In this document: piece after piece, positions 1,612 through 17,644 of the stretch | Layout: the number at the start of each line of letters is the position of its first letter | Position numbering within the stretch: position 1 is the first letter of the stretch | Assembly (NCBI GenBank): GCA_000004985.1 | Contig: GG738895.1 | DNA length: 64,000 nt | Strand: one strand, 5' to 3' | Origin: Naegleria gruberi | Taxonomy: Eukaryota | Notes under the pieces: generated by a model | Seen by the model: only the letters and a program-made list of their open reading frames with translations | Told to the model about the DNA's origin: nothing | Database searches by the model: none | Made by a program: the position numbers and the translations under genes

Positions 1612-2388
1612 ATGCAACAAGATCAAGAAGATGCCACAATAGTTTTCCTGCATGATTTCGCTTTCTATAACCAAAATTCTTCCTCGGAATACTTGGTCAA
1701 TCTCTTGAAGAAAAACCTGTCAAGGCCAAGGACAAGATTTAACATGAAAAAAGTTGACAGTTTCCAAGATTTGGAATTGAGAGAAGATTTACTACGAGGA
1801 GTGTATGGATATGGATTAAAACAATTATCAGAAATTCAAACTAAATGTATCATGCCAATAATATCATCCGAACCACCACTAGATGTTGTTTGCATTTCAA
1901 GCTCGGGGACTGGAAAGAAAACTGCATTCTCAATTGCTCTTCTCCAAAGAATAGACTTGGATCATCAAGCGTACTCTAAAGGAGCACCTCAAGCTCTAGT
2001 TATTACACCTACGAGAGAAATGAGTCAAGTCATTTCTAATCACATCAAGAAATTGGCTCATTATTTGGATGTCAAAGTATTACCTTTCCATGGAGGAGTT
2101 TCAACCAAAGAAACAATCCAAGCTCTAAATGAAATTCAACATGTAGTTGTTGGAACAAACAAATTGATGGACTTAATCAGGTTTAAAGTTTTGAATTTGA
2201 AATATTTGAAACTGATAATAATTGACAGAACAGGTTGTGATTGGCTCGACATGTATGATCAACAGATTTTGAGAATTATCAATGCATCAAACAAATTCAA
2301 CCTTCAAATATGTGTCTTTGGCGATTCGAGAAATATAGGATCGATTGAACAATATCTGAAAGATCCAATTTATTGTGAACTGGAGTAG
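1612..2388 (+). CDS. eIF4A-like DEAD-box helicase N-terminal (RecA1) domain-only protein with degenerate catalytic motifs. Probably a catalytically inactive pseudo-helicase.
   Basis: Clear colinearity with eIF4A domain 1. The phenylalanine upstream of the Q-motif, GVYGYG...IQ, the P-loop-like SSGTGKKTAF (in place of AQSGTGKT), an intact motif Ia PTREMS, GG and VVGT motifs are present. Motif II reads DRTG instead of DEAD and motif III reads FGDS instead of SAT. There is no RecA2 domain and no room for one before the next gene. A real ATG is at 1612. Confidence 0.6.
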   Translation: MQQDQEDATIVFLHDFAFYNQNSSSEYLVNLLKKNLSRPRTRFNMKKVDSFQDLELREDLLRGVYGYGLKQLSEIQTKCIMPIISSEPPLDVVCISSSGTGKKTAFSIALLQRIDLDHQAYSKGAPQALVITPTREMSQVISNHIKKLAHYLDVKVLPFHGGVSTKETIQALNEIQHVVVGTNKLMDLIRFKVLNLKYLKLIIIDRTGCDWLDMYDQQILRIINASNKFNLQICVFGDSRNIGSIEQYLKDPIYCELE

Positions 2389-2683
2389 AACTCGACAATC
2401 AGAGTATGTTGATTTGTATGCATCATGTCAACTCTGCTGCATATTCATTAAGCAATATTGGACCAAGTCAAGTGATATCTTCTCCAATTTTCAATTCCCT
2501 TGGTGAGTCTCAACTCTTCATTGATATTCAATGATTTTCCTTTTAATGGAAGATTATTTGAAGAGATTAATTACTAGAAATTAATTAGTCTGTTTGGAAA
2601 GTTAAGTTACAAAAATTACAGTAAATCTAGTTATTGGTTAAAGTTCTCAATAACGTATCATAATTAAATACTTTACAAAAAAA

Positions 2684-3775
2684 ATGGGAAACAATCAACA
2701 ACCCACATCCCAACCACCAGTTTTAAAAGATGGCGCTCTTCCGAGTGTTAGTACTCCATCATCAGCATGTTATGAACGCACATTAATGCAAGAATATTTT
2801 CCTAATAATTGTAAATTAATTCGAGTTTGTGATCATGATGAAGAAAATCGAAGGAAACAAGAGGAGAATTTGAAGAATTATCGGGAGAAATACTTGTCTC
2901 GATGTAATGGAATATTGGAGAAGATGTTACCTGAGGAAATTATTGTTGAAATTTTGTATTACTTGCCAATGAAGAGTTTGATCAAATTACAAATGGTTTC
3001 AAAGAATTTTCGCTTGTATTGGACTGAACTTCCTGGATTGTGGGATAAATTTTCAGATTATCCCAAAATGATGTATATTCCAATGGTATACGAAAGTATG
3101 AGAAGTAATTTTGGATATTATAATGAATTTAGACAAAAATTAATTAATTTACATGAAAAGCCAACACGAAATTTTGATTTTACTGGATATCAATACAAAG
3201 CCATCGTTTTGGGAGATAAAAAGTGTGGGAAAACCATTTTGCATAACAGAGTCTTCAAAGGCGAACCATTTTCTCAAGAATATGTCTATACGATCGGAGT
3301 AGATTTTTCTACCACAATTTCCAAACAAAACATATACATTCAATCTTGGGATACAGGTGGAGATGAAAGATTTAGAACAATTAATATCAATTTCTTTAGG
3401 GGTATGAAAGGCCACTTTTACTGCTTTGATTTGAATAATCACGAGTCATTTGAAGTAATGAAGGACATTTTTCAAGATTGGAAGAATGTATATCTCAAAG
3501 GTGAAGACCTTAGTTCATATTTTACTAAGATTTCATTCGCATTGGTGGGATTGAAATCAGATTTGGAACGCAAAGTATCAAGAGATGAAATTCATGAATT
3601 CTTGGAAAATATTGAACCACTGAAGGATAAGACTTTGCACACCAGTAGAGTCCAATACTTTGAGTTGAGTTCTAAAGAAGATTCAATTTCAGATTTACTT
3701 TTTCCATTTGTCTATAGTTATCATAATGTAATGGAAATACCAAGGCAATATTCAACAAGTATAAGTGAAATGTAA
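2684..3775 (+). CDS. F-box domain fused to a Ras/Rab-like small GTPase
   Basis: F-box consensus LPEEIIVEILYYLPMKSLIKLQMVSKNF at about aa 80-110. GTPase G1 P-loop GDKKCGKT, G3 WDTGGDERF (DTAGQE-like), G4 GLKSDL (NKxD-like) and G5 ELSSKE (ETSAK-like). Starts MGNNQ. A real ATG is at 2684. Confidence 0.65.
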   Translation: MGNNQQPTSQPPVLKDGALPSVSTPSSACYERTLMQEYFPNNCKLIRVCDHDEENRRKQEENLKNYREKYLSRCNGILEKMLPEEIIVEILYYLPMKSLIKLQMVSKNFRLYWTELPGLWDKFSDYPKMMYIPMVYESMRSNFGYYNEFRQKLINLHEKPTRNFDFTGYQYKAIVLGDKKCGKTILHNRVFKGEPFSQEYVYTIGVDFSTTISKQNIYIQSWDTGGDERFRTININFFRGMKGHFYCFDLNNHESFEVMKDIFQDWKNVYLKGEDLSSYFTKISFALVGLKSDLERKVSRDEIHEFLENIEPLKDKTLHTSRVQYFELSSKEDSISDLLFPFVYSYHNVMEIPRQYSTSISEM

Positions 3776-3924: not shown

Positions 3925-6900
3925 TTAAATCATTAAGAACTGAACAAAGACCACTAAGCACAATACTTCAGTAACAAAATAGCTAGCATTAGCAACAGAA
4001 ACTCTATCCGATTTTCCAGGTGAACCCCTTCTTGATGGTTCTGGAATTGGTTGGGAAGTACTACTTTTTGGTTGTGGAATAGATGGTTGTGGATTAACAG
4101 GACTCTCTCCATTACAATTCATCTCATAAGCTCCAATATCTGGTGCCTTTCCATAATAAGGCATTCCAACATTAGTTCCCTTATCAATCAATGTAATGTT
4201 GCTGTCACATCTCAATCTAAAATCATTAGCCAAATAATCTTTGAAATAATTGGTGGCATTATTGTAATTATTTTCAAAAATGGTGTTTGGTCCAATAACT
4301 GGTTTCCAAATACCTTGGAAATAGCTCCCAACAATTGCAATATAATTGTAATCAGTTTCCCAATATGGAAGAAGATCAAACTTTGCACTAGAAGTTCCAA
4401 TATTCAAGTCAACCAACTGAATAGTATTGTCCAAGAAGGCATTATTCTTCATGGAAACACTTCTTGGATAGTAACTAATCATTGCCGAATCAAAAATTGC
4501 TTGGAATACCAATTCATCAAGAATGGATCTTGTCAACCCTCTTACTTCCTCAATAATTGAAAGACCAGCATTTGAATACGAGAAAGCACCTGTACTGGAG
4601 CTTAATAACCCTCTTTTTGTAACAGCAGTCCAATATGGATAAGCAAGACCATCTTGATCCAATTGAGGAAGAACATAATCTTTGTGAACTGACATGAAAT
4701 TAGTGTCATTAATCACATTGTTAATGAAATTGATAATTTCAGCCTTATCACCACTTGTTAAATCTGAAGCTGTAGAATAAGATCTAATTCTTGATACAAG
4801 AGTTTCATTTTTGGACCAAACTAATTTGTTTCCATTTTCGGTTGGGTTTACAATACTGTTAAAAAGAGTATTCCAATTTGAAGTGGTAGTACTATCTATC
4901 AAAGCACATCTGCTATTATCTGTCTTGACAGCAAATCTCAAAAATGATTGATAGAATTGATTATTATGCAGCACAACTCTAGCAGCATGATTGACACCAA
5001 CTGGACCTCCAATAAAGACATTTCGTCTGAAGATAACTAAACCATTTTGTTCCATCCACATGTTCTGATTACCAAGTTTGTTAATCAATACGTTATCTTC
5101 GAGAACAATGTTATTGATATTGGTAAATTGAATATTATCTGGATGTTGACGATATGAAGTTTGATGCTCAACTCGATTGTTTTTGATTAGAATATTCCAA
5201 TTACTATATGCCAATTGAGTTCCAGAACCAACCCAAATACCATTATTATAATTCTTGTAAATGTACATGTTCTTAATTTGTGAATCGTTCACCATACTTG
5301 CAAAGTTTACACCATTGTTGTGATTATAACTAATCTTGCCGCCATCAACATTAATATTAGTTGCATCTCTGAAACTAAATCCATTTTCACCATTTCCATA
5401 TGAAGAGCAGTTCAATAATTGAACACTATCAGTGAATTGACCAAAAAATCCCATTGAAGCATACTTTCTAAACATCATATCTTGAACAATTAAACCATCC
5501 CCGTAAACTATTGAAATGCCATTGGTCAAGGCAGATGCTTCAAGCATGACACCACTCACCTTAGGATCCTTATCAAGTGAAACTTGAATGATATTTCCTT
5601 CTGCGGTATATTGATTAGCACGAGAGAATGATCCAATATGATTGGCAATAGCATACGAATCTTTCAAGACTATTCCCATTGGAGTAGTAAGTCCTGGCGG
5701 AATGGCATTAATTCCAATAGTATTGGTAGTGGCATTGTAATAGATAATTGTTCGAGGTTGAATGGCATTTCCAAATTGATTGTAATGGTAGAAATCAGCA
5801 CCAACCCAGAAATTATCTGAAACAGGATTTCCTGCAGCATCATATTTGAACATGTCATCAACTTCCAAATAGACTATTCCATTTAAAGTGTATGAAACAT
5901 TCTTTGGAGTGAGATAATTAGTATGATCATATTCATCATCCAAATCATATGGAAGAGGTTTCATTGCCAAACTCAATTTCTCGCCATCTGCATAAATATA
6001 CGAAGTTGAAACTTGAAGTTGACCCTTATAGATGGAAATTGGTGTGGACATGACCTTTTCCAAATTTTTAGGATCAATAATTAATGAACCATCCAAAACT
6101 GCTGAATAAGTTTTGGAATTTCCAGAGGAAGGAGTTGGTGGATTCAAAGGTTTGATAGTAATTGGATGTTTGGAATGGGTTGGGCGATCAAAATAGATTG
6201 ATTCTCTATAGATACCATTTCCAACAATTAAGGTGTCATCTGGAAGTAACATGTATTGAGCTGCATTCAAAGTTGACCAAGCAGAAGATAGACCAAGACC
6301 ATCATTAGAATCGGATCCACTCAATTGATTAACATAGTAGGTCAATCCATTTCTGTTGTGCATTTGTTTACCTTGATAAACAGTAACAGATTGAGATCTC
6401 AAAGTTGCTCCTTTGGAATTTCCTGGATTTCTGTCATAAAAACCAAATTTCAAGATTTTAAACTTTTGAATAGCACTAGAATCGGTATCTGTTACAATGA
6501 CTTGATAATCATTAGCACTGGAACCCAATTTAGCCAACTGAATTGAAATTCCATTTGAAGACCATTCAGCATAAAGTTTGTAAGTGGAATAAAGCAATGG
6601 GACATGAATTAATGCTAATTTGGAGCTAGAATATAAGCGAACAGATTGACCATTCATAATTCTGGTAATGGACATGGTTGGATACAAACTAATCTTGTAA
6701 TAATTGTTTTGGTCAACCAGGAGAACAAAACCAAGATCATAGCTGGTAGATAGAAAACCAGTTTGCAAATTGCTTGAAAATGTAACACCATCAGTAGTGT
6801 CATACGGAGTGTCATAGGTGACAATCGAATCATTTTGATAAATTTGCAACAATTGACTAGCAATACCAACATTTCCTTTTTGGGTATTCCAACCAGCCAT

Positions 6901-7326
6901 GCCATTGCTAAAATTACTCTGCATCAACACCTTCAAACTATTTGGAGTAGGCAATGCAATAGATTGAATAGTAATCATGTGAGTAATGGTTATCTTTTTC
7001 CCATTCACATCATTATACGAAACGTTTCTCATCACCACAGTTTCGCCAATCGATTGTGTACTATAAACCAGAGCTGAATTATAATTATATAAACCAGTTT
7101 TCAATGGAGAACCATCTGCCATTGAATAAGCGATCTGAACTGAAGTTGAAGAATAGGAATCATTGAAATAGGTAATTCTTGGATTTAAAATTACTGAACC
7201 GAATTGATGCATGATAACTTTCTGGATGGGAGTAACGTAGAGTACATCCTGAACAGTTTGTGCATGTGTAACGGTATGAAAAACTGTCAGGAGGAGCAAA
7301 ATGACAAGTGGCAGTTTTGCTTTCAT
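3925..7326 (-). CDS. Large secreted or surface protein with a parallel beta-helix (pectin-lyase-fold-like) repeat region, a Pro/Ser-rich stalk and a hydrophobic GPI-anchor-like C-terminus
   Basis: 1133-aa uninterrupted ORF. N-terminal signal peptide MKAKLPLVILLLLTVFHTVTHA. Repeated Nxx(I/V)xxN/G-rich beta-helix-like units (e.g. NNGIWVGSGTQ, NIQFTNINNIVLEDNVLIN). Many NxS/T sites. C-terminus ...PQPKSSTSQPIPEPS...ASYFVTEVLCLVVFVQFLMI. Confidence 0.55.
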   Translation of the reverse strand: MKAKLPLVILLLLTVFHTVTHAQTVQDVLYVTPIQKVIMHQFGSVILNPRITYFNDSYSSTSVQIAYSMADGSPLKTGLYNYNSALVYSTQSIGETVVMRNVSYNDVNGKKITITHMITIQSIALPTPNSLKVLMQSNFSNGMAGWNTQKGNVGIASQLLQIYQNDSIVTYDTPYDTTDGVTFSSNLQTGFLSTSYDLGFVLLVDQNNYYKISLYPTMSITRIMNGQSVRLYSSSKLALIHVPLLYSTYKLYAEWSSNGISIQLAKLGSSANDYQVIVTDTDSSAIQKFKILKFGFYDRNPGNSKGATLRSQSVTVYQGKQMHNRNGLTYYVNQLSGSDSNDGLGLSSAWSTLNAAQYMLLPDDTLIVGNGIYRESIYFDRPTHSKHPITIKPLNPPTPSSGNSKTYSAVLDGSLIIDPKNLEKVMSTPISIYKGQLQVSTSYIYADGEKLSLAMKPLPYDLDDEYDHTNYLTPKNVSYTLNGIVYLEVDDMFKYDAAGNPVSDNFWVGADFYHYNQFGNAIQPRTIIYYNATTNTIGINAIPPGLTTPMGIVLKDSYAIANHIGSFSRANQYTAEGNIIQVSLDKDPKVSGVMLEASALTNGISIVYGDGLIVQDMMFRKYASMGFFGQFTDSVQLLNCSSYGNGENGFSFRDATNINVDGGKISYNHNNGVNFASMVNDSQIKNMYIYKNYNNGIWVGSGTQLAYSNWNILIKNNRVEHQTSYRQHPDNIQFTNINNIVLEDNVLINKLGNQNMWMEQNGLVIFRRNVFIGGPVGVNHAARVVLHNNQFYQSFLRFAVKTDNSRCALIDSTTTSNWNTLFNSIVNPTENGNKLVWSKNETLVSRIRSYSTASDLTSGDKAEIINFINNVINDTNFMSVHKDYVLPQLDQDGLAYPYWTAVTKRGLLSSSTGAFSYSNAGLSIIEEVRGLTRSILDELVFQAIFDSAMISYYPRSVSMKNNAFLDNTIQLVDLNIGTSSAKFDLLPYWETDYNYIAIVGSYFQGIWKPVIGPNTIFENNYNNATNYFKDYLANDFRLRCDSNITLIDKGTNVGMPYYGKAPDIGAYEMNCNGESPVNPQPSIPQPKSSTSQPIPEPSRRGSPGKSDRVSVANASYFVTEVLCLVVFVQFLMI

Positions 7327-13235: not shown

Positions 13236-13359
13236 ATAAATTTGCCAAAGAATACATAAGAAAAAAAGATGTTGTCAACACTCATTCTTAACTTAGCTGT
13301 TCATTGGTAAAGGAGGTCAACTAGAAATATAATAAGTATTGTTTCATAATGAATATGAA

Positions 13360-13430
13360 GCGTCGATGGTTTAGTGGTAGAATACGGCGTTGCCATCGCC
13401 GTGACCCGGGTTCAATTCCCGGTCGACGCA
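13360..13430 (+). tRNA. tRNA-Gly (anticodon GCC)
   Basis: GCGTCGA acceptor, TGGTTTAGTGGTAGAAT D-arm, anticodon loop TTGCCAT, T-arm GGGTTCAATTCCC. Downstream T-run ttttacttttttcc. Confidence 0.85.
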
Positions 13431-13765
13431 TCAGAAGATATCAATTTTTACTTTTTTCCCTTTGGATTCAAAATTTAAATTTTTTGCCGCGTGGGCTACC
13501 CATGTCTAGATAGTATATTCTCAAATATCACAGTTTCATCTATTATATTGGTCTAGATAATGCCCACAGTTTTGACCTCATTTTTTCCCTGAGGGTCCAA
13601 TTCTACTCAGACTAAATATAATCTAATATTCAAATAGACAATAGAGTTTAAGCAAAATTAACTTAGATCAACCCACACTTTACCATAAAAAATTGTAAAC
13701 AAAATTGGTAAATTAAAATTAATATTCTCTGGTGTTTGTTTTTGACCAAGTTGAAGATAAAGTTG

Positions 13766-14560
13766 TTACAAATCTTCTAATAATATTGGATCTCTCAAAT
13801 GTTTTTGAATGAACAATTTGGTATCTCGATTTCTTGCACATCCAAAAATACAAATCTGAAGATTTAACTTTTTGGCAATTTTCACAATTTCCTCAACATG
13901 AGCTTGAAAACCATAATTTTGTACATGACTCATCTCCTCAACAATTAACATTTTCAAATATTTCACATTCAGAATATTGCTCTCTATCAAATCTAACAAT
14001 TTCACTGGCGTTCCCACAACTACATGTTGAATTTCTTGCAGAGCTAGCTCTGCAGACCGCATTTGACCTCCATATATCCCAAATACTTTGACACTCATAA
14101 ATTTCGCAAAGGATGCTATAATATGAGAGAGACTTATCGCCATTTCCCTGGTCGGTACAATCACCAATGCTTGAGGGGCACCTTTCGAATATAAATCATG
14201 ATTCAGATCAATTCTTTCAAGAAGGGCAAGTGAAAACCCAACTGTTTTACCAGTTCCAATTTTAGATGTGGACACAACATCAACTGGTGGATAGGATGAA
14301 ATAATTGGCATGATCAACTTTTTTTGCAATTCTGTCATTTCTTTTTTACCATCACTATAAAAACCAGAAAGTAAATTCGCGCGTAAATTTAAATCTTCAA
14401 AAGTTTCAATCTTTTTCATGTTGAATTTTGGTCGTGGAATTGTGATTTGTTTTTTGAAAAGTTTGATCAAGTGTGAAAATTCCGAATTTATATTCGAATT
14501 GCTGTGTATGTCTGTTAGAAGGAGGCGTGTAACACTTTCGTATGTTTCTGCTTGGTTCAT
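13766..14560 (-). CDS. Paralog of the 1612-2388 gene: eIF4A-like DEAD-box RecA1-domain-only protein with degenerate motifs
   Basis: About 55% identity to the 1612-2388 product (shared RP..FNMKK, IMPIISS, GTGK, SKGAPQALVI, PTREM, LQEIQHVVVGT, KYLK, NLQIC). Motif II is VEEM instead of DEAD and motif III is FGCA instead of SAT. No C-terminal helicase domain. ATG at 14560. Confidence 0.6.
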   Translation of the reverse strand: MNQAETYESVTRLLLTDIHSNSNINSEFSHLIKLFKKQITIPRPKFNMKKIETFEDLNLRANLLSGFYSDGKKEMTELQKKLIMPIISSYPPVDVVSTSKIGTGKTVGFSLALLERIDLNHDLYSKGAPQALVIVPTREMAISLSHIIASFAKFMSVKVFGIYGGQMRSAELALQEIQHVVVGTPVKLLDLIESNILNVKYLKMLIVEEMSHVQNYGFQAHVEEIVKIAKKLNLQICIFGCARNRDTKLFIQKHLRDPILLEDL

Positions 14561-15460: not shown

Positions 15461-17644
15461 ATGAAATCAACATCTCTATTGATATCTTTGGTTCTTTTTA
15501 TTTCCATCTGCATTTCCACACATGTCAATTGTGCATGGAACTTGCCACCACTCGGTTCTCCAAGAATACTCTTTGCAGATTCGTCCTACTTGACGAAACT
15601 AAAGTCTGACATGGCAAAGCCAACCAATTACGCCACTTCTTTCAAAAACTTTGTTAATAGTGGAATTTCTGGTGGCGGATCCGTCTATCTATTCGAAGCA
15701 TGGCACTCAGCTCTATTATTCATGGTCACAGGACAAGTTTCCTATTGTAACTATGCAGTTCAAAATATAGATTCCATTGTAGCTCAAGAAGAATCCATCA
15801 TTGCCAGTGGGAACATTCCATCCATTGCAGGAGATAGTTATCTTGATGTTGGATATGGTTTGCATAATATAATGACTGTCTATGATTGGTGTCGAGCACA
15901 AACAAGTCAATCTCAAAGAAATCGATGGACAAATTATGCCAATCAAGCAGTTTCTAATATTTGGAATTGCTCAACAGCGACATGGGGTGGTAAAGATGCT
16001 GCATGGTCATGTTGGTCGGTGGATAATCCAGGAAACAATTATTATTACTCCTTTTTGAGAGCAACCATGATGGTTGGGTTAGCCACATACGGAGAGAATG
16101 CAAGTGCTGATATGTGGTTGAGACAATTTAGAAATGTCAAGATTGGAAATCAATTAATTCCATATTTTAATGGAGAGCTCAAGACAGGTGGCAGTTTGGA
16201 AGGAACTGGGTATGGTATTTCACATAAGGAATTGTTTAATTTGTATATTTGGTGGCAATTGTCAACTGGTGAAAATATTGCTGACCTGACTTCACACACT
16301 TACAATTCGTTACAATGGATTTTGCATCAAATGGTTCCACAATTGGATGCATTGGCAAATATTGGCGATCAAGCACGTGATTCCTCTGCATCTTTCTATG
16401 ATTATCATCGTCATTACATTATTGCTCTTTGCTATTTATATCCAAAATCCAAATTAGCAAAATCAGCTAAAATTCTATTATCCAAATCGAGTGTTCCTCA
16501 AATGACAAGCGGTTTCAATACTTATATAGATTACATTTATGATATCAGTTCTATTGAAACAGTTCCACTCAATTCAACCTATATTACAACTTCATTCAGG
16601 GGAGATTCAACTGGAACTCTTGCCTTACGTTCAAGTTGGGATTCTGATGCAGTTTATGCTAATTTAGTTTGTGGACCACTTGTAGAATCTCATGCACATC
16701 AAGATCAGGGAAGTTTTATTCTATATCACAAGGGTTGGTTGGCATATGATCAGAATTTCAATAGTCATTCTGGAATTCAACAAATGAATCACTATCATAA
16801 TTTGGTTAGAATTGTTAGTGACAATGAGATTATTCTTCAATCTGGAGGATCTCCTTGTAATATGAGTGCACTTTCTGATAATTCTGTTTATTCCTATGCA
16901 CTTTCACTTGTTACTCCTCTATATGATAGTAATAATTACAATTCGAAAGGTTTAGTTACCAAAGTCGAAAGAGAATTTGTATTTATCAAACCAAGTACAT
17001 TTGTTGTTTTTGATAGAGTGGCAACAAAGACTAATTCCAAAGCTAAAAGAATACTTTCGCTTAATTTTATGGATAAACCAAGCTATTCCAATGGAAATTT
17101 GGTTTTTAATTCAAAGAGTTCCATTACTGTTAAAACTCTTTCTCCAACCTCAAATTTAAACGTTTCCATTATTGATTGGAAAACTGAAGATTCTGATAAC
17201 AATGCTGGATATAGAGTTGACTATTTGGATACTTCATCATTAGATTCCACTAACTTTTTACAAGTAATTTCAATCAACTCTTCTGTTGCCTCATCCATTA
17301 GGGATGATGTTAGTGGAAAAATAGGAGCAACAATTAGTTTGAATGATGGACGAAAGGTAACTGTTCGATTCAATACTGCCAGTACTGGTGGATCAATCGT
17401 GGTTATTTCCAATAAGCAAACAACATTGGTGAATGAGGATCTCACAACCAGTAAGCAAGCTCTTGGTGTGGGAGAGGTAATAGTTCCACTTTCATCACCT
17501 AAACCTGTTCCAATTTCTTCTGTGCAACCAGGTCAAAAATCAAGCAAAGCATTTACATCAACAAGAGTTAATTCTAGTCGGCCATCTCAAATGAGTAGTT
17601 TGTTCTTCATTATTGTAATAATTGGTTTCATTTTAATAAATTAA
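15461..17644 (+). CDS. Secreted polysaccharide-lyase-like protein (alginate lyase / heparinase II/III-like fold) with a Ser-rich stalk and a GPI-anchor-like hydrophobic C-terminus
   Basis: Signal peptide MKSTSLLISLVLFISICISTHVNC. The C-terminal half carries ESHAHQDQGSFILYHKGWLAYDQNF, which matches the H-x-H-x-D-x-GSF signature of the heparinase II/III-like domain. Intronless 727 aa. C-terminus SSRPSQMSSLFFIIVIIGFILIN. Confidence 0.5.
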   Translation: MKSTSLLISLVLFISICISTHVNCAWNLPPLGSPRILFADSSYLTKLKSDMAKPTNYATSFKNFVNSGISGGGSVYLFEAWHSALLFMVTGQVSYCNYAVQNIDSIVAQEESIIASGNIPSIAGDSYLDVGYGLHNIMTVYDWCRAQTSQSQRNRWTNYANQAVSNIWNCSTATWGGKDAAWSCWSVDNPGNNYYYSFLRATMMVGLATYGENASADMWLRQFRNVKIGNQLIPYFNGELKTGGSLEGTGYGISHKELFNLYIWWQLSTGENIADLTSHTYNSLQWILHQMVPQLDALANIGDQARDSSASFYDYHRHYIIALCYLYPKSKLAKSAKILLSKSSVPQMTSGFNTYIDYIYDISSIETVPLNSTYITTSFRGDSTGTLALRSSWDSDAVYANLVCGPLVESHAHQDQGSFILYHKGWLAYDQNFNSHSGIQQMNHYHNLVRIVSDNEIILQSGGSPCNMSALSDNSVYSYALSLVTPLYDSNNYNSKGLVTKVEREFVFIKPSTFVVFDRVATKTNSKAKRILSLNFMDKPSYSNGNLVFNSKSSITVKTLSPTSNLNVSIIDWKTEDSDNNAGYRVDYLDTSSLDSTNFLQVISINSSVASSIRDDVSGKIGATISLNDGRKVTVRFNTASTGGSIVVISNKQTTLVNEDLTTSKQALGVGEVIVPLSSPKPVPISSVQPGQKSSKAFTSTRVNSSRPSQMSSLFFIIVIIGFILIN

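What the first reader, a model, noticed from the sequence alone, without database searches (positions are those of the whole stretch)
1612..2388. Pair of paralogous single-domain, motif-degenerate eIF4A-like 'pseudo-helicases' (second copy at 13766-14560, opposite strand)
Both genes encode only the N-terminal RecA-like domain of an eIF4A-type DEAD-box helicase. They keep the helicase scaffold (GTGK P-loop remnant, PTREM motif Ia, GG, VVGT) but have lost the catalytic DEAD box (DRTG / VEEM) and the SAT motif (FGDS / FGCA). The whole C-terminal domain is missing; this is not because of introns, as no coding space remains. Two diverged copies (about 55% identity) kept in frame and intact argue for selection on a non-catalytic function, for example an RNA- or partner-binding decoy or a regulator of eIF4A/eIF4G-type complexes. 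Such half-helicases are not a standard annotated family.
Basis: partly seen in the sequence, partly recalled or inferred. Interest (0 to 1): 0.65.

Follow-up and report, generated by a model that had tools for sequence, protein, structure and literature searches.

The report
Half-helicase eIF4A relatives in Naegleria
Two genes in this Naegleria gruberi window belong to a small amoeba-specific family of proteins that keep only the first half of the translation helicase eIF4A and have lost its catalytic residues, yet are still kept intact by selection, so they probably work by binding rather than as enzymes.

Summary
The window is Naegleria gruberi. ORF A (1612-2388 +, 258 aa) and ORF B (13766-14560 -, 264 aa) are 49% identical, not about 55%. 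Both match only the N-terminal RecA domain of eIF4A. DEAD is replaced by DRTG/EEMS and SAT by GDS/GCA. No Helicase_C coding sequence exists anywhere in the 64 kb, and there are no assembly gaps.

New findings:
- They are part of a family: a third N. gruberi paralog on the same scaffold, a possible fourth locus, and Willaertia magna homologs that also end at the domain 1/linker boundary.
- Members share two derived loop insertions. One of these also occurs in a canonical full-length environmental eIF4A.
- Each member has lost a different subset of ATPase residues, which suggests truncation came first and the motifs decayed independently afterwards.
- Purifying selection is relaxed but real: paralog dN/dS is 0.32, and recent pN/pS is 0.26 (P=0.008).
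- The NCBI gene models appear to start about 45 codons too late.

Function is untested. The best inference is a non-catalytic binding module. No expression data or partner evidence could be obtained. I rate it a new variant of a known kind (DEAD-box pseudo-helicase), of moderate interest.

The parts
1612..2388 (+). Half-helicase gene A (NAEGRDRAFT_72139 / XP_002672749 / D2VT16). Full ORF 258 aa plus stop.
   Evidence: ORF list. 100% identical to P0001 over the annotated part. Pfam DEAD only. eIF4A-I N-domain 4e-29. AF2 pLDDT 85.7; Foldseek top hit is the human eIF4A1 DEAD domain, TM 0.85-0.89.
1612..1743 (+). N-terminal extension of A (residues 1-44), missing from the NCBI model, which starts at Met45 (1744).
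   Evidence: Conserved at protein level between A, B and C: 'ATIVFLHDF/VTRLLLTDI/NVIVSLIDF', 'L[VI]xLxKK', 'PRxKFNMKK'. dN/dS 0.31. Start context aaaaaaATG, as in neighbouring genes.
1864..1884 (+). Family-specific loop insertion SSEPPLD before motif I.
   Evidence: Alignment against 72 eIF4A-like proteins. Shared with B, C, Willaertia, L006 and the canonical full-length eIF4A in L088.
1897..1920 (+). Motif I remnant SSSGTGKK (canonical AQSGTGKT; the Mg-binding Thr is replaced by Lys).
1963..1989 (+). Second family-specific insertion HQAYSKGAP before the motif Ia strand.
   Evidence: Y..P is shared with B and C (YSKGAP / YSKGCP) and Willaertia (KYASTTP).
2008..2025 (+). Motif Ia PTREMS (retained).
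2092..2097 (+). GG doublet (retained).
2224..2235 (+). Motif II position reads D-R-T-G instead of D-E-A-D (catalytic Glu lost).
   Evidence: read directly from the sequence.
2320..2328 (+). Motif III position reads G-D-S instead of S-A-T.
2389..2683 (.). 295-bp spacer between A's stop codon and the next gene (F-box/Ras-like, ATG at 2684). Too short for a Helicase_C domain and has no similarity to one.
13766..14560 (-). Half-helicase gene B (NAEGRDRAFT_72146 / XP_002672815 / D2VT22). Full ORF 264 aa plus stop.
   Evidence: The same 264-aa ORF is called in another strain's assembly (P0295, L004/L005).
14420..14560 (-). N-terminal extension of B (residues 1-47), missing from the NCBI model, which starts at Met48 (14419).
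14279..14299 (-). Insertion SSYPPVD before motif I.
14243..14266 (-). Motif I SKIGTGKT (GTGKT intact).
14138..14155 (-). Motif Ia PTREMA.
13928..13939 (-). Motif II position reads E-E-M-S instead of D-E-A-D.
13835..13843 (-). Motif III position reads G-C-A instead of S-A-T.
13236..13765 (.). Spacer downstream of B. It contains tRNA-Gly(GCC) at 13360-13430 (+) and abuts the end of the SppA-like gene. No Helicase_C coding sequence.
   Evidence: It diverges 4.8%/site between strains, against 1.3% in the B coding sequence.

Best explanation
A and B are real, intact genes of a small family found so far in the heterolobosean amoebae Naegleria gruberi and Willaertia magna. The family descends from eIF4A and keeps only the first RecA-like domain. 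The parent was an eIF4A that already carried a short 'TS-x-PP' loop insertion before the P-loop. A duplicate lost everything after the domain 1/linker boundary ('DPI...'). Without domain 2 there is no arginine finger and there are no RNA-binding motifs IV-VI, so RNA-dependent ATP hydrolysis became impossible. The ATPase residues were then free to decay, and they decayed differently in each copy. The fold and the family-specific loops stayed under relaxed but real purifying selection, as did the Naegleria-specific N-terminal extension of about 45 residues. The gene then duplicated within the Naegleria lineage to give A, B and C. SHOWN: architecture, ancestry, motif states, family membership, absence of domain 2, and selection. 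INFERRED: the proteins act without catalysis, as binding modules. The most likely mode is that they occupy a protein partner that normally recognises the N-terminal domain of an eIF4A-type helicase, or act as an adaptor through the new loops and N-terminal extension. This inference rests only on what a lone, motif-dead RecA1 domain can and cannot do.
For: Architecture: Pfam DEAD only. No Helicase_C by tblastn in the 64-kb window or in the 12.7-kb Willaertia locus. No assembly gaps.
Ancestry: the family profile scores eIF4A-I 229 bits, eIF4A-III 216, DDX6 183, DDX19 145. The AF2 model superposes on the human eIF4A1 DEAD domain at about 2 A rmsd.
Family: NgC (XP_002672773) lies on the same scaffold. 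Willaertia KAL9649299 and KAL9657223 also belong. All stop within a few residues after 'DPI/NPV'.
Shared derived characters: the PP insertion, the Y..P insertion, and 'QIC'. The PP insertion also occurs in a canonical full-length eIF4A, L088.
Independent decay of motifs in NgA/NgB/NgC/Wm: motif II is DRTG/EEMS/DEFE/DQLD; motif III is GDS/GCA/SQD/SLQ; the P-loop is GTGKK/GTGKT/GTSKT/GTGKT; the Q of the Q motif is kept/kept/His/kept.
Phylogeny: A+B+C are monophyletic (100% NJ bootstrap); adding Willaertia and P0061 gives 63%.
Selection: dN/dS is 0.32 with saturated dS. The strain pair for B has 4 synonymous and 6 nonsynonymous changes, and the Willaertia pair has 4 and 2; pooled pN/pS is 0.26, P=0.008. 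The coding sequences diverge 2-4 times more slowly than adjacent intergenic DNA.
Against: There is no expression, proteomic or interaction evidence. Searches of papers and supplements for the gene IDs found nothing. Constraint is weak compared with neighbouring genes: SppA has 7 synonymous and 1 nonsynonymous change, and L28e has no changes. In another strain B carries G165A in the GG doublet. No orthologs turned up from N. fowleri or N. lovaniensis, though the searches used are lossy or collapse relatives above 50% identity. B and the Willaertia protein keep the Q motif and GTGKT, so a nucleotide-binding role is not excluded. Conservation of partner-interface residues could not be tested. There is no consistent charge shift that would point to nucleic-acid binding.
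Confidence: 0.6

Rival explanations
1. The genes are decaying relics. They are non-functional leftovers of partial eIF4A duplications, and the open frames are just not yet broken.
For: Catalytic motifs are lost. They evolve about twice as fast as canonical eIF4A N-domains. Constraint is weaker than in neighbouring genes, and there is a GG-to-GA polymorphism. No expression evidence was found. An environmental relative (L006) carries a frameshift and a partly truncated C-domain, which shows that erosion does happen in this clade.
Against: Five distinct sequences remain open at 40-50% amino-acid divergence with saturated dS (1.4). These are A, B, C and two Willaertia loci, plus strain variants of B and C. 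The chance of 258 stop-free codons at this composition is about 3e-9. dN/dS is 0.32, and pooled recent pN/pS is 0.26 (P=0.008). The coding sequences diverge more slowly than flanking DNA. The truncation point is the same in Naegleria and Willaertia.
Confidence: 0.1
2. The proteins form a split helicase. The N-domain proteins pair non-covalently with a separately encoded C-terminal RecA domain, or with domain 2 of a full-length helicase, to form a two-domain RNA clamp.
For: The RNA-contacting motifs of domain 1 (Ia PTRE, GG, the Thr of Ib) are the best-kept motifs across the family. B and Willaertia keep Q and GTGKT.
Against: There is no Helicase_C-only gene in the 64-kb window or next to the Willaertia gene. 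DEAD and SAT are lost in every Naegleria/Willaertia member, so a reconstituted enzyme could not hydrolyse ATP or couple hydrolysis to RNA binding. The rest of the N. gruberi genome could not be searched here.
Confidence: 0.07
3. The proteins are nucleotide-binding switches. At least B and the Willaertia protein still bind ATP/ADP through the Q motif and P-loop, and use nucleotide state rather than hydrolysis to gate partner binding.
For: B has F..GxxxxTELQ plus GTGKT, and Willaertia has SPLQ plus GTGKT and D-Q-L-D. From established knowledge, E-to-Q in DEAD (DQAD in eIF4A) blocks hydrolysis but not ATP binding, and isolated eIF4A domain 1 can bind adenine nucleotide.
Against: A (GKK) and C (Q-to-H, GTSKT) have lost key contacts, so nucleotide binding cannot be the function conserved across the family. 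No biochemical data exist.
Confidence: 0.15
4. The finding is an annotation or assembly artefact. These are first exons of normal eIF4A genes whose downstream exons were missed, or the motif changes are sequencing errors.
For: N. gruberi genes do have introns. The environmental members P0051 and P0055 sit at contig ends or are interrupted.
Against: No Helicase_C coding potential exists in any frame across 64 kb. Neighbouring genes and a tRNA occupy the downstream space. There are no Ns. An independent assembly of another strain reproduces locus B, its stop codon and its degenerate motifs. The Willaertia gene is followed by 1.1 kb without helicase similarity.
Confidence: 0.02

Closest known systems
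eIF4A (eIF4A-I/II/III) N-terminal RecA domain of DEAD-box helicases
   Same: It has the same fold and is the closest sequence relative: 33% identity to human eIF4A1 residues about 30-235; Foldseek TM 0.85-0.89, rmsd about 2 A; family profile 229 bits. The Q-motif region, P-loop scaffold, PTRE, GG and VGT are recognisable.
   Different: There is no second RecA domain. DEAD and SAT are lost. Two loop insertions and, in Naegleria, an N-terminal extension of about 45 residues are present. It evolves about twice as fast. It cannot be an RNA-dependent ATPase or helicase.
CMS1/CMSS1 (Pfam PF14617), a conserved eukaryotic protein built on a single degenerate DEAD-like domain (from my own knowledge of the family)
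   Same: The concept is the same: a stand-alone, motif-degenerate RecA1-like module derived from DEAD-box helicases. Both window proteins give weak cross-hits to the CMS1 model (E 0.011 and 0.0032).
   Different: Scores of 15.6 and 17.3 bits are far below the 35-bit gathering cutoff. The window proteins are much closer to eIF4A (105 bits). They are restricted to Naegleria and Willaertia rather than pan-eukaryotic. They are not members of CMS1.
Utp25/Def, a DEAD-box 'pseudohelicase' of the SSU processome (PMC9539457)
   Same: It is a DEAD-box-derived protein whose catalytic motifs are degenerate, described as a pseudohelicase.
   Different: From my own knowledge, Utp25 keeps a two-domain helicase-like core and is a conserved ribosome-biogenesis factor. 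The proteins here have one domain and are lineage-specific. No UTP25 Pfam hit appeared at E<=1.
Dominant-negative eIF4A mutants such as DQAD (from my own knowledge of the eIF4A literature)
   Same: These are catalytically dead eIF4A variants that interfere by occupying partners. The Willaertia member has exactly D-Q-x-D at motif II.
   Different: The mutants are full-length and depend on the C-terminal domain for tight eIF4G binding. The natural half-helicases lack that domain, so the same mechanism cannot simply be assumed.
Tandem degenerate eIF4A N-domain arrays in animals (Stomoxys calcitrans LOC106083760; Calicophoron daubneyi CAL8078821), uncharacterised
   Same: These are independent cases in which eIF4A-like N-domains with a lost DEAD motif persist without a matching number of C-domains.
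   Different: They are multi-domain arrays (7 N-domains, or 4 N-domains plus 1 C-domain) in metazoans. They lack the Naegleria/Willaertia insertions. I did not analyse them beyond reading the sequences.

Membership tests
DEAD-box RNA helicase (SF2) | N-terminal RecA-like domain (Pfam DEAD PF00270) | tested here: met
   72.4 and 80.9 bits against a cutoff of 26. The AF2 model matches eIF4A domain 1.
DEAD-box RNA helicase (SF2) | C-terminal RecA-like domain (Helicase_C PF00271, motifs IV-VI) | tested here: not met
   Only a sub-threshold hit of 16.5 bits (cutoff 23.5), and it lies inside domain 1. No tblastn hit in the 64 kb. Both proteins end at the interdomain linker.
DEAD-box RNA helicase (SF2) | Motif II D-E-A-D (Walker B with catalytic Glu) | tested here: not met
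   D-R-T-G in A and E-E-M-S in B; also D-E-F-E in C and D-Q-L-D in Willaertia.
DEAD-box RNA helicase (SF2) | Motif III S-A-T | tested here: not met
   G-D-S in A and G-C-A in B.
DEAD-box RNA helicase (SF2) | Motif I AxxGxGKT and the Q motif | tested here: inconclusive
   B has SKIGTGKT and keeps the Q. A has SSSGTGKK (Thr lost) and keeps the Q. C has GTSKT and His in place of the Q. Actual nucleotide binding was not measured.
eIF4A subfamily | Closest sequence and structure relative is eIF4A rather than another DEAD-box subfamily | tested here: met
   eIF4A-I/II/III score 216-229 bits, against DDX6 183, DDX39B 153 and DDX19/Dbp5 141-146. Foldseek top hits are 2g9n, 5zbz and 7ddx.
eIF4A subfamily | Full two-domain helicase able to bind eIF4G mainly through its C-terminal domain and to hydrolyse ATP | tested here: not met
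   The C-terminal domain is absent and the catalytic motifs are lost. Binding to eIF4G itself is not testable with these tools.
CMS1 (PF14617) | Score at or above the Pfam gathering threshold for CMS1 | tested here: not met
   15.6 and 17.3 bits against a cutoff of 35.
Naegleria/Willaertia half-helicase family (defined here) | An eIF4A-like domain 1 ending within about 10 residues after the 'DPI' linker motif, the S-S-x-P-P insertion before motif I, the Y-x-x-x-x-P insertion before motif Ia, and 'QIC' before motif III | tested here: met
   All of these are present in A, B and C and, with small variations, in the Willaertia proteins.

The most novel reading that the evidence does not exclude
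Naegleria and its relatives have evolved a dedicated class of single-RecA, catalytically dead eIF4A paralogs. These would regulate translation initiation or another eIF4A-family pathway by competing for partners of the helicase's N-terminal domain, or by recruiting them through the new PP/YSKGAP loops and the N-terminal extension. Together with the independent N-domain arrays in a fly and a fluke, this would point to a recurrent, unrecognised route by which eIF4A N-domains become stand-alone regulatory modules.
Probability: 0.2. Interest if true: 0.65.

Novelty: new variant of a known kind. Interest (0 to 1): 0.42.

Why it matters
Catalytically dead enzyme relatives are a recognised class. For DEAD-box helicases, the described examples I know of keep both RecA domains (Utp25) or are ancient and pan-eukaryotic (CMS1). 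Here the whole second domain was discarded, and the remaining half then survived duplication and tens of percent of sequence divergence under selection. Each copy lost different ATPase residues. That gives a natural experiment on what an isolated eIF4A N-domain is good for. If these proteins modulate eIF4F or an eIF4A-III-type complex, they would be a new kind of translation or RNP regulator in a deep-branching eukaryote. Practically, three N. gruberi gene models appear to need N-terminal extension, and the automatic name 'ATP-dependent RNA helicase' is misleading.

Tried and rejected
1. A hidden C-terminal domain. tblastn with three eIF4A C-domains at E<=10 across the window and across the Willaertia and strain loci found nothing credible. 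Read-through of the stop codons adds only 7 codons (A) or 35 codons (B) of non-helicase sequence.

2. Dbp5/DDX19 ancestry. The 'EPP' insertion before motif I resembles Dbp5/DDX19 (a resemblance recalled from memory). I rejected this origin because the family profile scores eIF4A 229 bits against DDX19 about 145. In addition, relatives with the insertion carry eIF4A-type sequence after domain 1 ('QFYI..EKEEWKLETL', L006/L088).

3. Orthologs in other Naegleria species. None appeared in three word-index searches or in the exhaustive representative search. This is not conclusive. The word index missed known family members, and the representative library collapses relatives above 50% identity.

4. 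Metagenome scan with the family's N-terminal profile. It returned only generic DEAD-box genes at 29-39% identity, a dead end.

5. Expression and literature. There is no mention of the gene, protein or UniProt IDs in the searched full texts or in the held supplements of three Naegleria/Acrasis papers; a fourth paper had no supplements held. No paper on single-domain eIF4A paralogs was found.

6. Charge/pI as a hint of RNA binding. pI ranges from 5.3 to 9.0 with no consistent shift.

7. Partner-interface conservation (eIF4G, PDCD4).

8. Foldseek against AFDB50 was unavailable.

9. Segmental duplication of flanks. Only the coding sequences of A and B are similar (66% nucleotide identity). The neighbouring genes are unrelated.
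Full report
**Source and observation.** The window is from Naegleria gruberi. The product of 1744-2388 is 100% identical to XP_002672749 (NAEGRDRAFT_72139), and the product of 13766-14419 corresponds to XP_002672815 (NAEGRDRAFT_72146). Both lie on a 333,733-bp scaffold. ORF A (1612..2388 +, 258 aa) and ORF B (13766..14560 -, 264 aa) are present as described. Pfam detects only the DEAD domain PF00270, at 72 and 81 bits. The one Helicase_C hit is sub-threshold and lies inside domain 1. The nearest solved structures are eIF4A-I N-domains (4e-29), followed by yeast eIF4A, eIF4A-III, and then DDX39B, DDX6 and Dbp5. An AlphaFold2 model of A has mean pLDDT 85.7 and pTM 0.82. Residues 1-15 are disordered, and there is a lower-confidence helix at residues 25-36. 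The model superposes on the human eIF4A1 DEAD domain with TM 0.85-0.89 and rmsd about 2 A.

**Motifs.** I aligned the proteins against 72 full-length eIF4A-like proteins. The states, each given as A / B:

| Motif | A | B | Canonical |
|---|---|---|---|
| Q | GLKQLSEIQ | GKKEMTELQ | Q kept in both |
| I | SSSGTGKK | SKIGTGKT | AQSGTGKT |
| Ia | PTREMS | PTREMA | PTRELA |
| GG | kept | kept | GG |
| Ib | GT-NK | GTPVK | GTPGR |
| II | D-R-T-G | E-E-M-S | D-E-A-D |
| III | G-D-S | G-C-A | S-A-T |

**The C-terminal domain is really absent.**
- tblastn with three full-length eIF4A-like proteins, and separately with their C-terminal domains, at E<=10 against the whole window finds only the two N-domain loci.
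- A's stop codon is followed by 295 bp and then an F-box/Ras-like gene.
- B's stop is followed by 530 bp that include tRNA-Gly(GCC) at 13360-13430, and then the 3' end of an SppA-type peptidase gene.
- The window contains no Ns.
- An independent metagenome-derived assembly of another N. gruberi strain (L004, 98.2% identical over 4.4 kb) shows the same B / spacer / SppA / L28e arrangement, with an intact 264-aa ORF B.

**A family, not just a pair.** An exhaustive HMMER search of 1.84 billion representative proteins with the A+B profile, followed by cluster look-ups, gave several further members.
- A third N. gruberi paralog, C (XP_002672773, NAEGRDRAFT_72190), lies on the same scaffold but outside the window. 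It is 233 aa as annotated and 270 aa in a strain assembly (P0159).
- Willaertia magna has two near-identical 235-aa proteins (KAL9649299, KAL9657223) at syntenic loci.
- Two unidentified protist sequences, P0051 and P0061, also end at the linker.
- A 74-aa partial N. gruberi protein on another scaffold (P0299) carries the same 'ILPIISSEPPVDV' signature and may be a fourth locus. Its DNA could not be retrieved.

All full members stop within a few residues of the 'DPI/NPV' linker motif. The 12.7-kb Willaertia locus has no Helicase_C either. Naegleria and Willaertia members share three derived characters that canonical eIF4A lacks:
- an S-S-x-P-P insertion before motif I;
- a Y-x-x-x-x-P insertion before the motif Ia strand;
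- 'QIC' in place of 'QVxL' before motif III.

The PP insertion also occurs in a canonical, full-length environmental eIF4A with DEAD, SAT and HRIGRSGR (L088). It occurs as well in an eroding relative with DEID, a frameshift, and a C-domain cut after the motif V region (L006). The insertion therefore predates the truncation, and C-terminal erosion is seen at more than one stage.

In a neighbour-joining analysis of 205 N-domain columns, A+B+C form a clade in 100% of bootstraps. Adding Willaertia and P0061 gives a clade in 63%.

**Order of events.** Each member has lost a different subset of ATPase residues, given as NgA/NgB/NgC/Wm:
- motif II: DRTG / EEMS / DEFE / DQLD;
- motif III: GDS / GCA / SQD / SLQ;
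- P-loop: GTGKK / GTGKT / GTSKT / GTGKT;
- the Q of the Q motif: kept in A, B and Willaertia; His in C.

The shared truncation point with unshared motif losses is most simply explained if the truncation came first and the motifs decayed independently afterwards. This is an inference.

**Selection.**
- Nei-Gojobori dN/dS between A and B is 0.32 (dN 0.445; dS 1.38, saturated). Codon-position identities are 0.60, 0.74 and 0.48.
- At short range, B differs from its strain variant by 4 synonymous and 6 nonsynonymous changes. The neighbouring SppA gene shows 7 and 1.
- The two Willaertia loci differ by 4 synonymous and 2 nonsynonymous changes.
- Pooled, pN/pS is 0.26, with binomial P=0.008 against neutrality.
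- The coding sequences diverge at 1.1-1.3% per site, against 2.5-4.8% in adjacent intergenic DNA.
- The probability of 258 stop-free codons at this base composition is about 3e-9.

Constraint is therefore real but relaxed. One strain carries G165A in B's GG doublet.

**Gene models.** The NCBI models start at an internal Met (residue 45 in A, residue 48 in B). Four lines of evidence favour the longer ORFs.
- The upstream 44-47 codons are conserved at protein level among A, B and C.
- Those codons have dN/dS of about 0.31.
- The upstream start has an 'aaaaaaATG' context, like three of six neighbouring genes. The internal Met has '(t)tcaacATG'/'tttaacATG'.
- The long forms are called at 264 and 270 aa in independent assemblies.

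The Willaertia proteins lack this extension. Only about 80 bp separate the gene from its upstream neighbour.

**Mechanism.** What is shown is a stably folded eIF4A-type RecA1 domain with no RecA2, no DEAD and no SAT, kept by selection. From established DEAD-box enzymology, ATP hydrolysis and RNA clamping need both domains. Motif VI supplies the arginine finger. Motifs IV and V supply half of the RNA site. The Glu of motif II is the catalytic base. These proteins therefore cannot be RNA-dependent ATPases or helicases. My best inference (confidence about 0.6 for the whole statement) is a non-catalytic binding module. The family-specific features under constraint are the two inserted loops and, in Naegleria, the N-terminal extension, so these are the likeliest functional surfaces. 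The partner is unknown. It is weakened by the fact (from my own knowledge) that eIF4G-type MIF4G domains anchor mainly on the missing C-domain. B and the Willaertia protein could still bind adenine nucleotide, while A and C probably cannot, so nucleotide binding is not the conserved property of the family.

**Rivals.**
- Neutral relics: about 0.1. The ORF persistence and the selection statistics argue against this.
- A split helicase with a trans-encoded C-domain: about 0.07. None lies nearby and catalysis would be impossible anyway, but the rest of the genome was not searched.
- A nucleotide-gated switch for a subset of members: about 0.15. This does not exclude the main explanation.
- An annotation or assembly artefact: about 0.02.

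**Comparison with known families.** These are not DEAD-box helicases in the functional sense, because three defining features were tested and not met. They are not CMS1: scores are 15.6 and 17.3 bits against a cutoff of 35. They do not resemble Utp25. No paper or curated family describing single-domain eIF4A paralogs was found. They are best filed as a new, lineage-restricted variant of the DEAD-box pseudo-helicase theme.

**Limits.**
- No expression, localisation or interaction data could be obtained.
- Presence or absence in N. fowleri and N. lovaniensis is unresolved.
- The metagenome scan was uninformative.
- AFDB50 was unavailable.
- Interface-residue conservation was not tested.

Noticed in passing
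window 2684-3775 (+): A 363-aa protein fuses an F-box (residues 82-115) to a Ras/Rab-like GTPase domain (residues 170-332). This is an unusual domain combination.
   Followed up: partly
window 1612-1743 (+) and 14420-14560 (-): The NCBI gene models for A, B and the third paralog C appear N-terminally truncated by about 45 codons. The longer ORFs are conserved between paralogs, have the A-rich start context of neighbouring genes, and are called in independent strain assemblies.
   Followed up: yes
outside the window: same N. gruberi scaffold (XP_002672773) and another scaffold (P0299, 74-aa partial): There is a third half-helicase paralog, and a possible fourth locus carrying the same 'ILPIISSEPPVDV' signature. 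DNA for the fourth could not be fetched.
   Followed up: partly
L006 6001-7006 (ENA ERZ27315067 k141_1449595): An environmental eIF4A-like gene has the TSEPP insertion, DEID instead of DEAD, a 1-nt frameshift at GMHI|IGTPGR, and a C-domain that stops after 'ILITNDLNI' (no motif VI). It looks like an intermediate stage of erosion.
   Followed up: partly
L088 43-1246 (JGI 3300002220): A canonical full-length eIF4A (DEAD, SAT, HRIGRSGR) carries the same TSDPP insertion before motif I. The contig also shows a duplicated 'HRIGRSGRYGRKG' stretch, possibly an assembly glitch.
   Followed up: partly
proteins P0013 (Stomoxys calcitrans LOC106083760) and P0010 (Calicophoron daubneyi CAL8078821): Animal proteins made of tandem degenerate eIF4A-like N-domains: seven N-domains with no C-domain in the fly, and four N-domains plus one C-domain in the fluke. 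P-loops are mostly kept and DEAD is lost. These are independent parallels to the Naegleria half-helicases.
   Followed up: no
window 14066-14071 (-), residue G165 of B: Another N. gruberi strain (L004) has Ala in place of the second Gly of the GG doublet, a motif that is otherwise invariant in DEAD-box N-domains.
   Followed up: partly
window 3925-7326 (-) and 15461-17644 (+): Two large proteins (1133 and 727 aa) have a signal-peptide-like N-terminus, a Ser/Pro-rich C-terminal stalk and a hydrophobic tail. Their only Pfam hits are weak (Beta_helix, heparinase II/III-like), so they may be surface glycoproteins or polysaccharide-acting enzymes.
   Followed up: no
window 13360-13430 (+): tRNA-Gly(GCC) sits in the spacer downstream of B. 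The alignment to the other strain shows 3 substitutions in 71 nt, which is high for a tRNA. This may be an alignment effect near indels.
   Followed up: no
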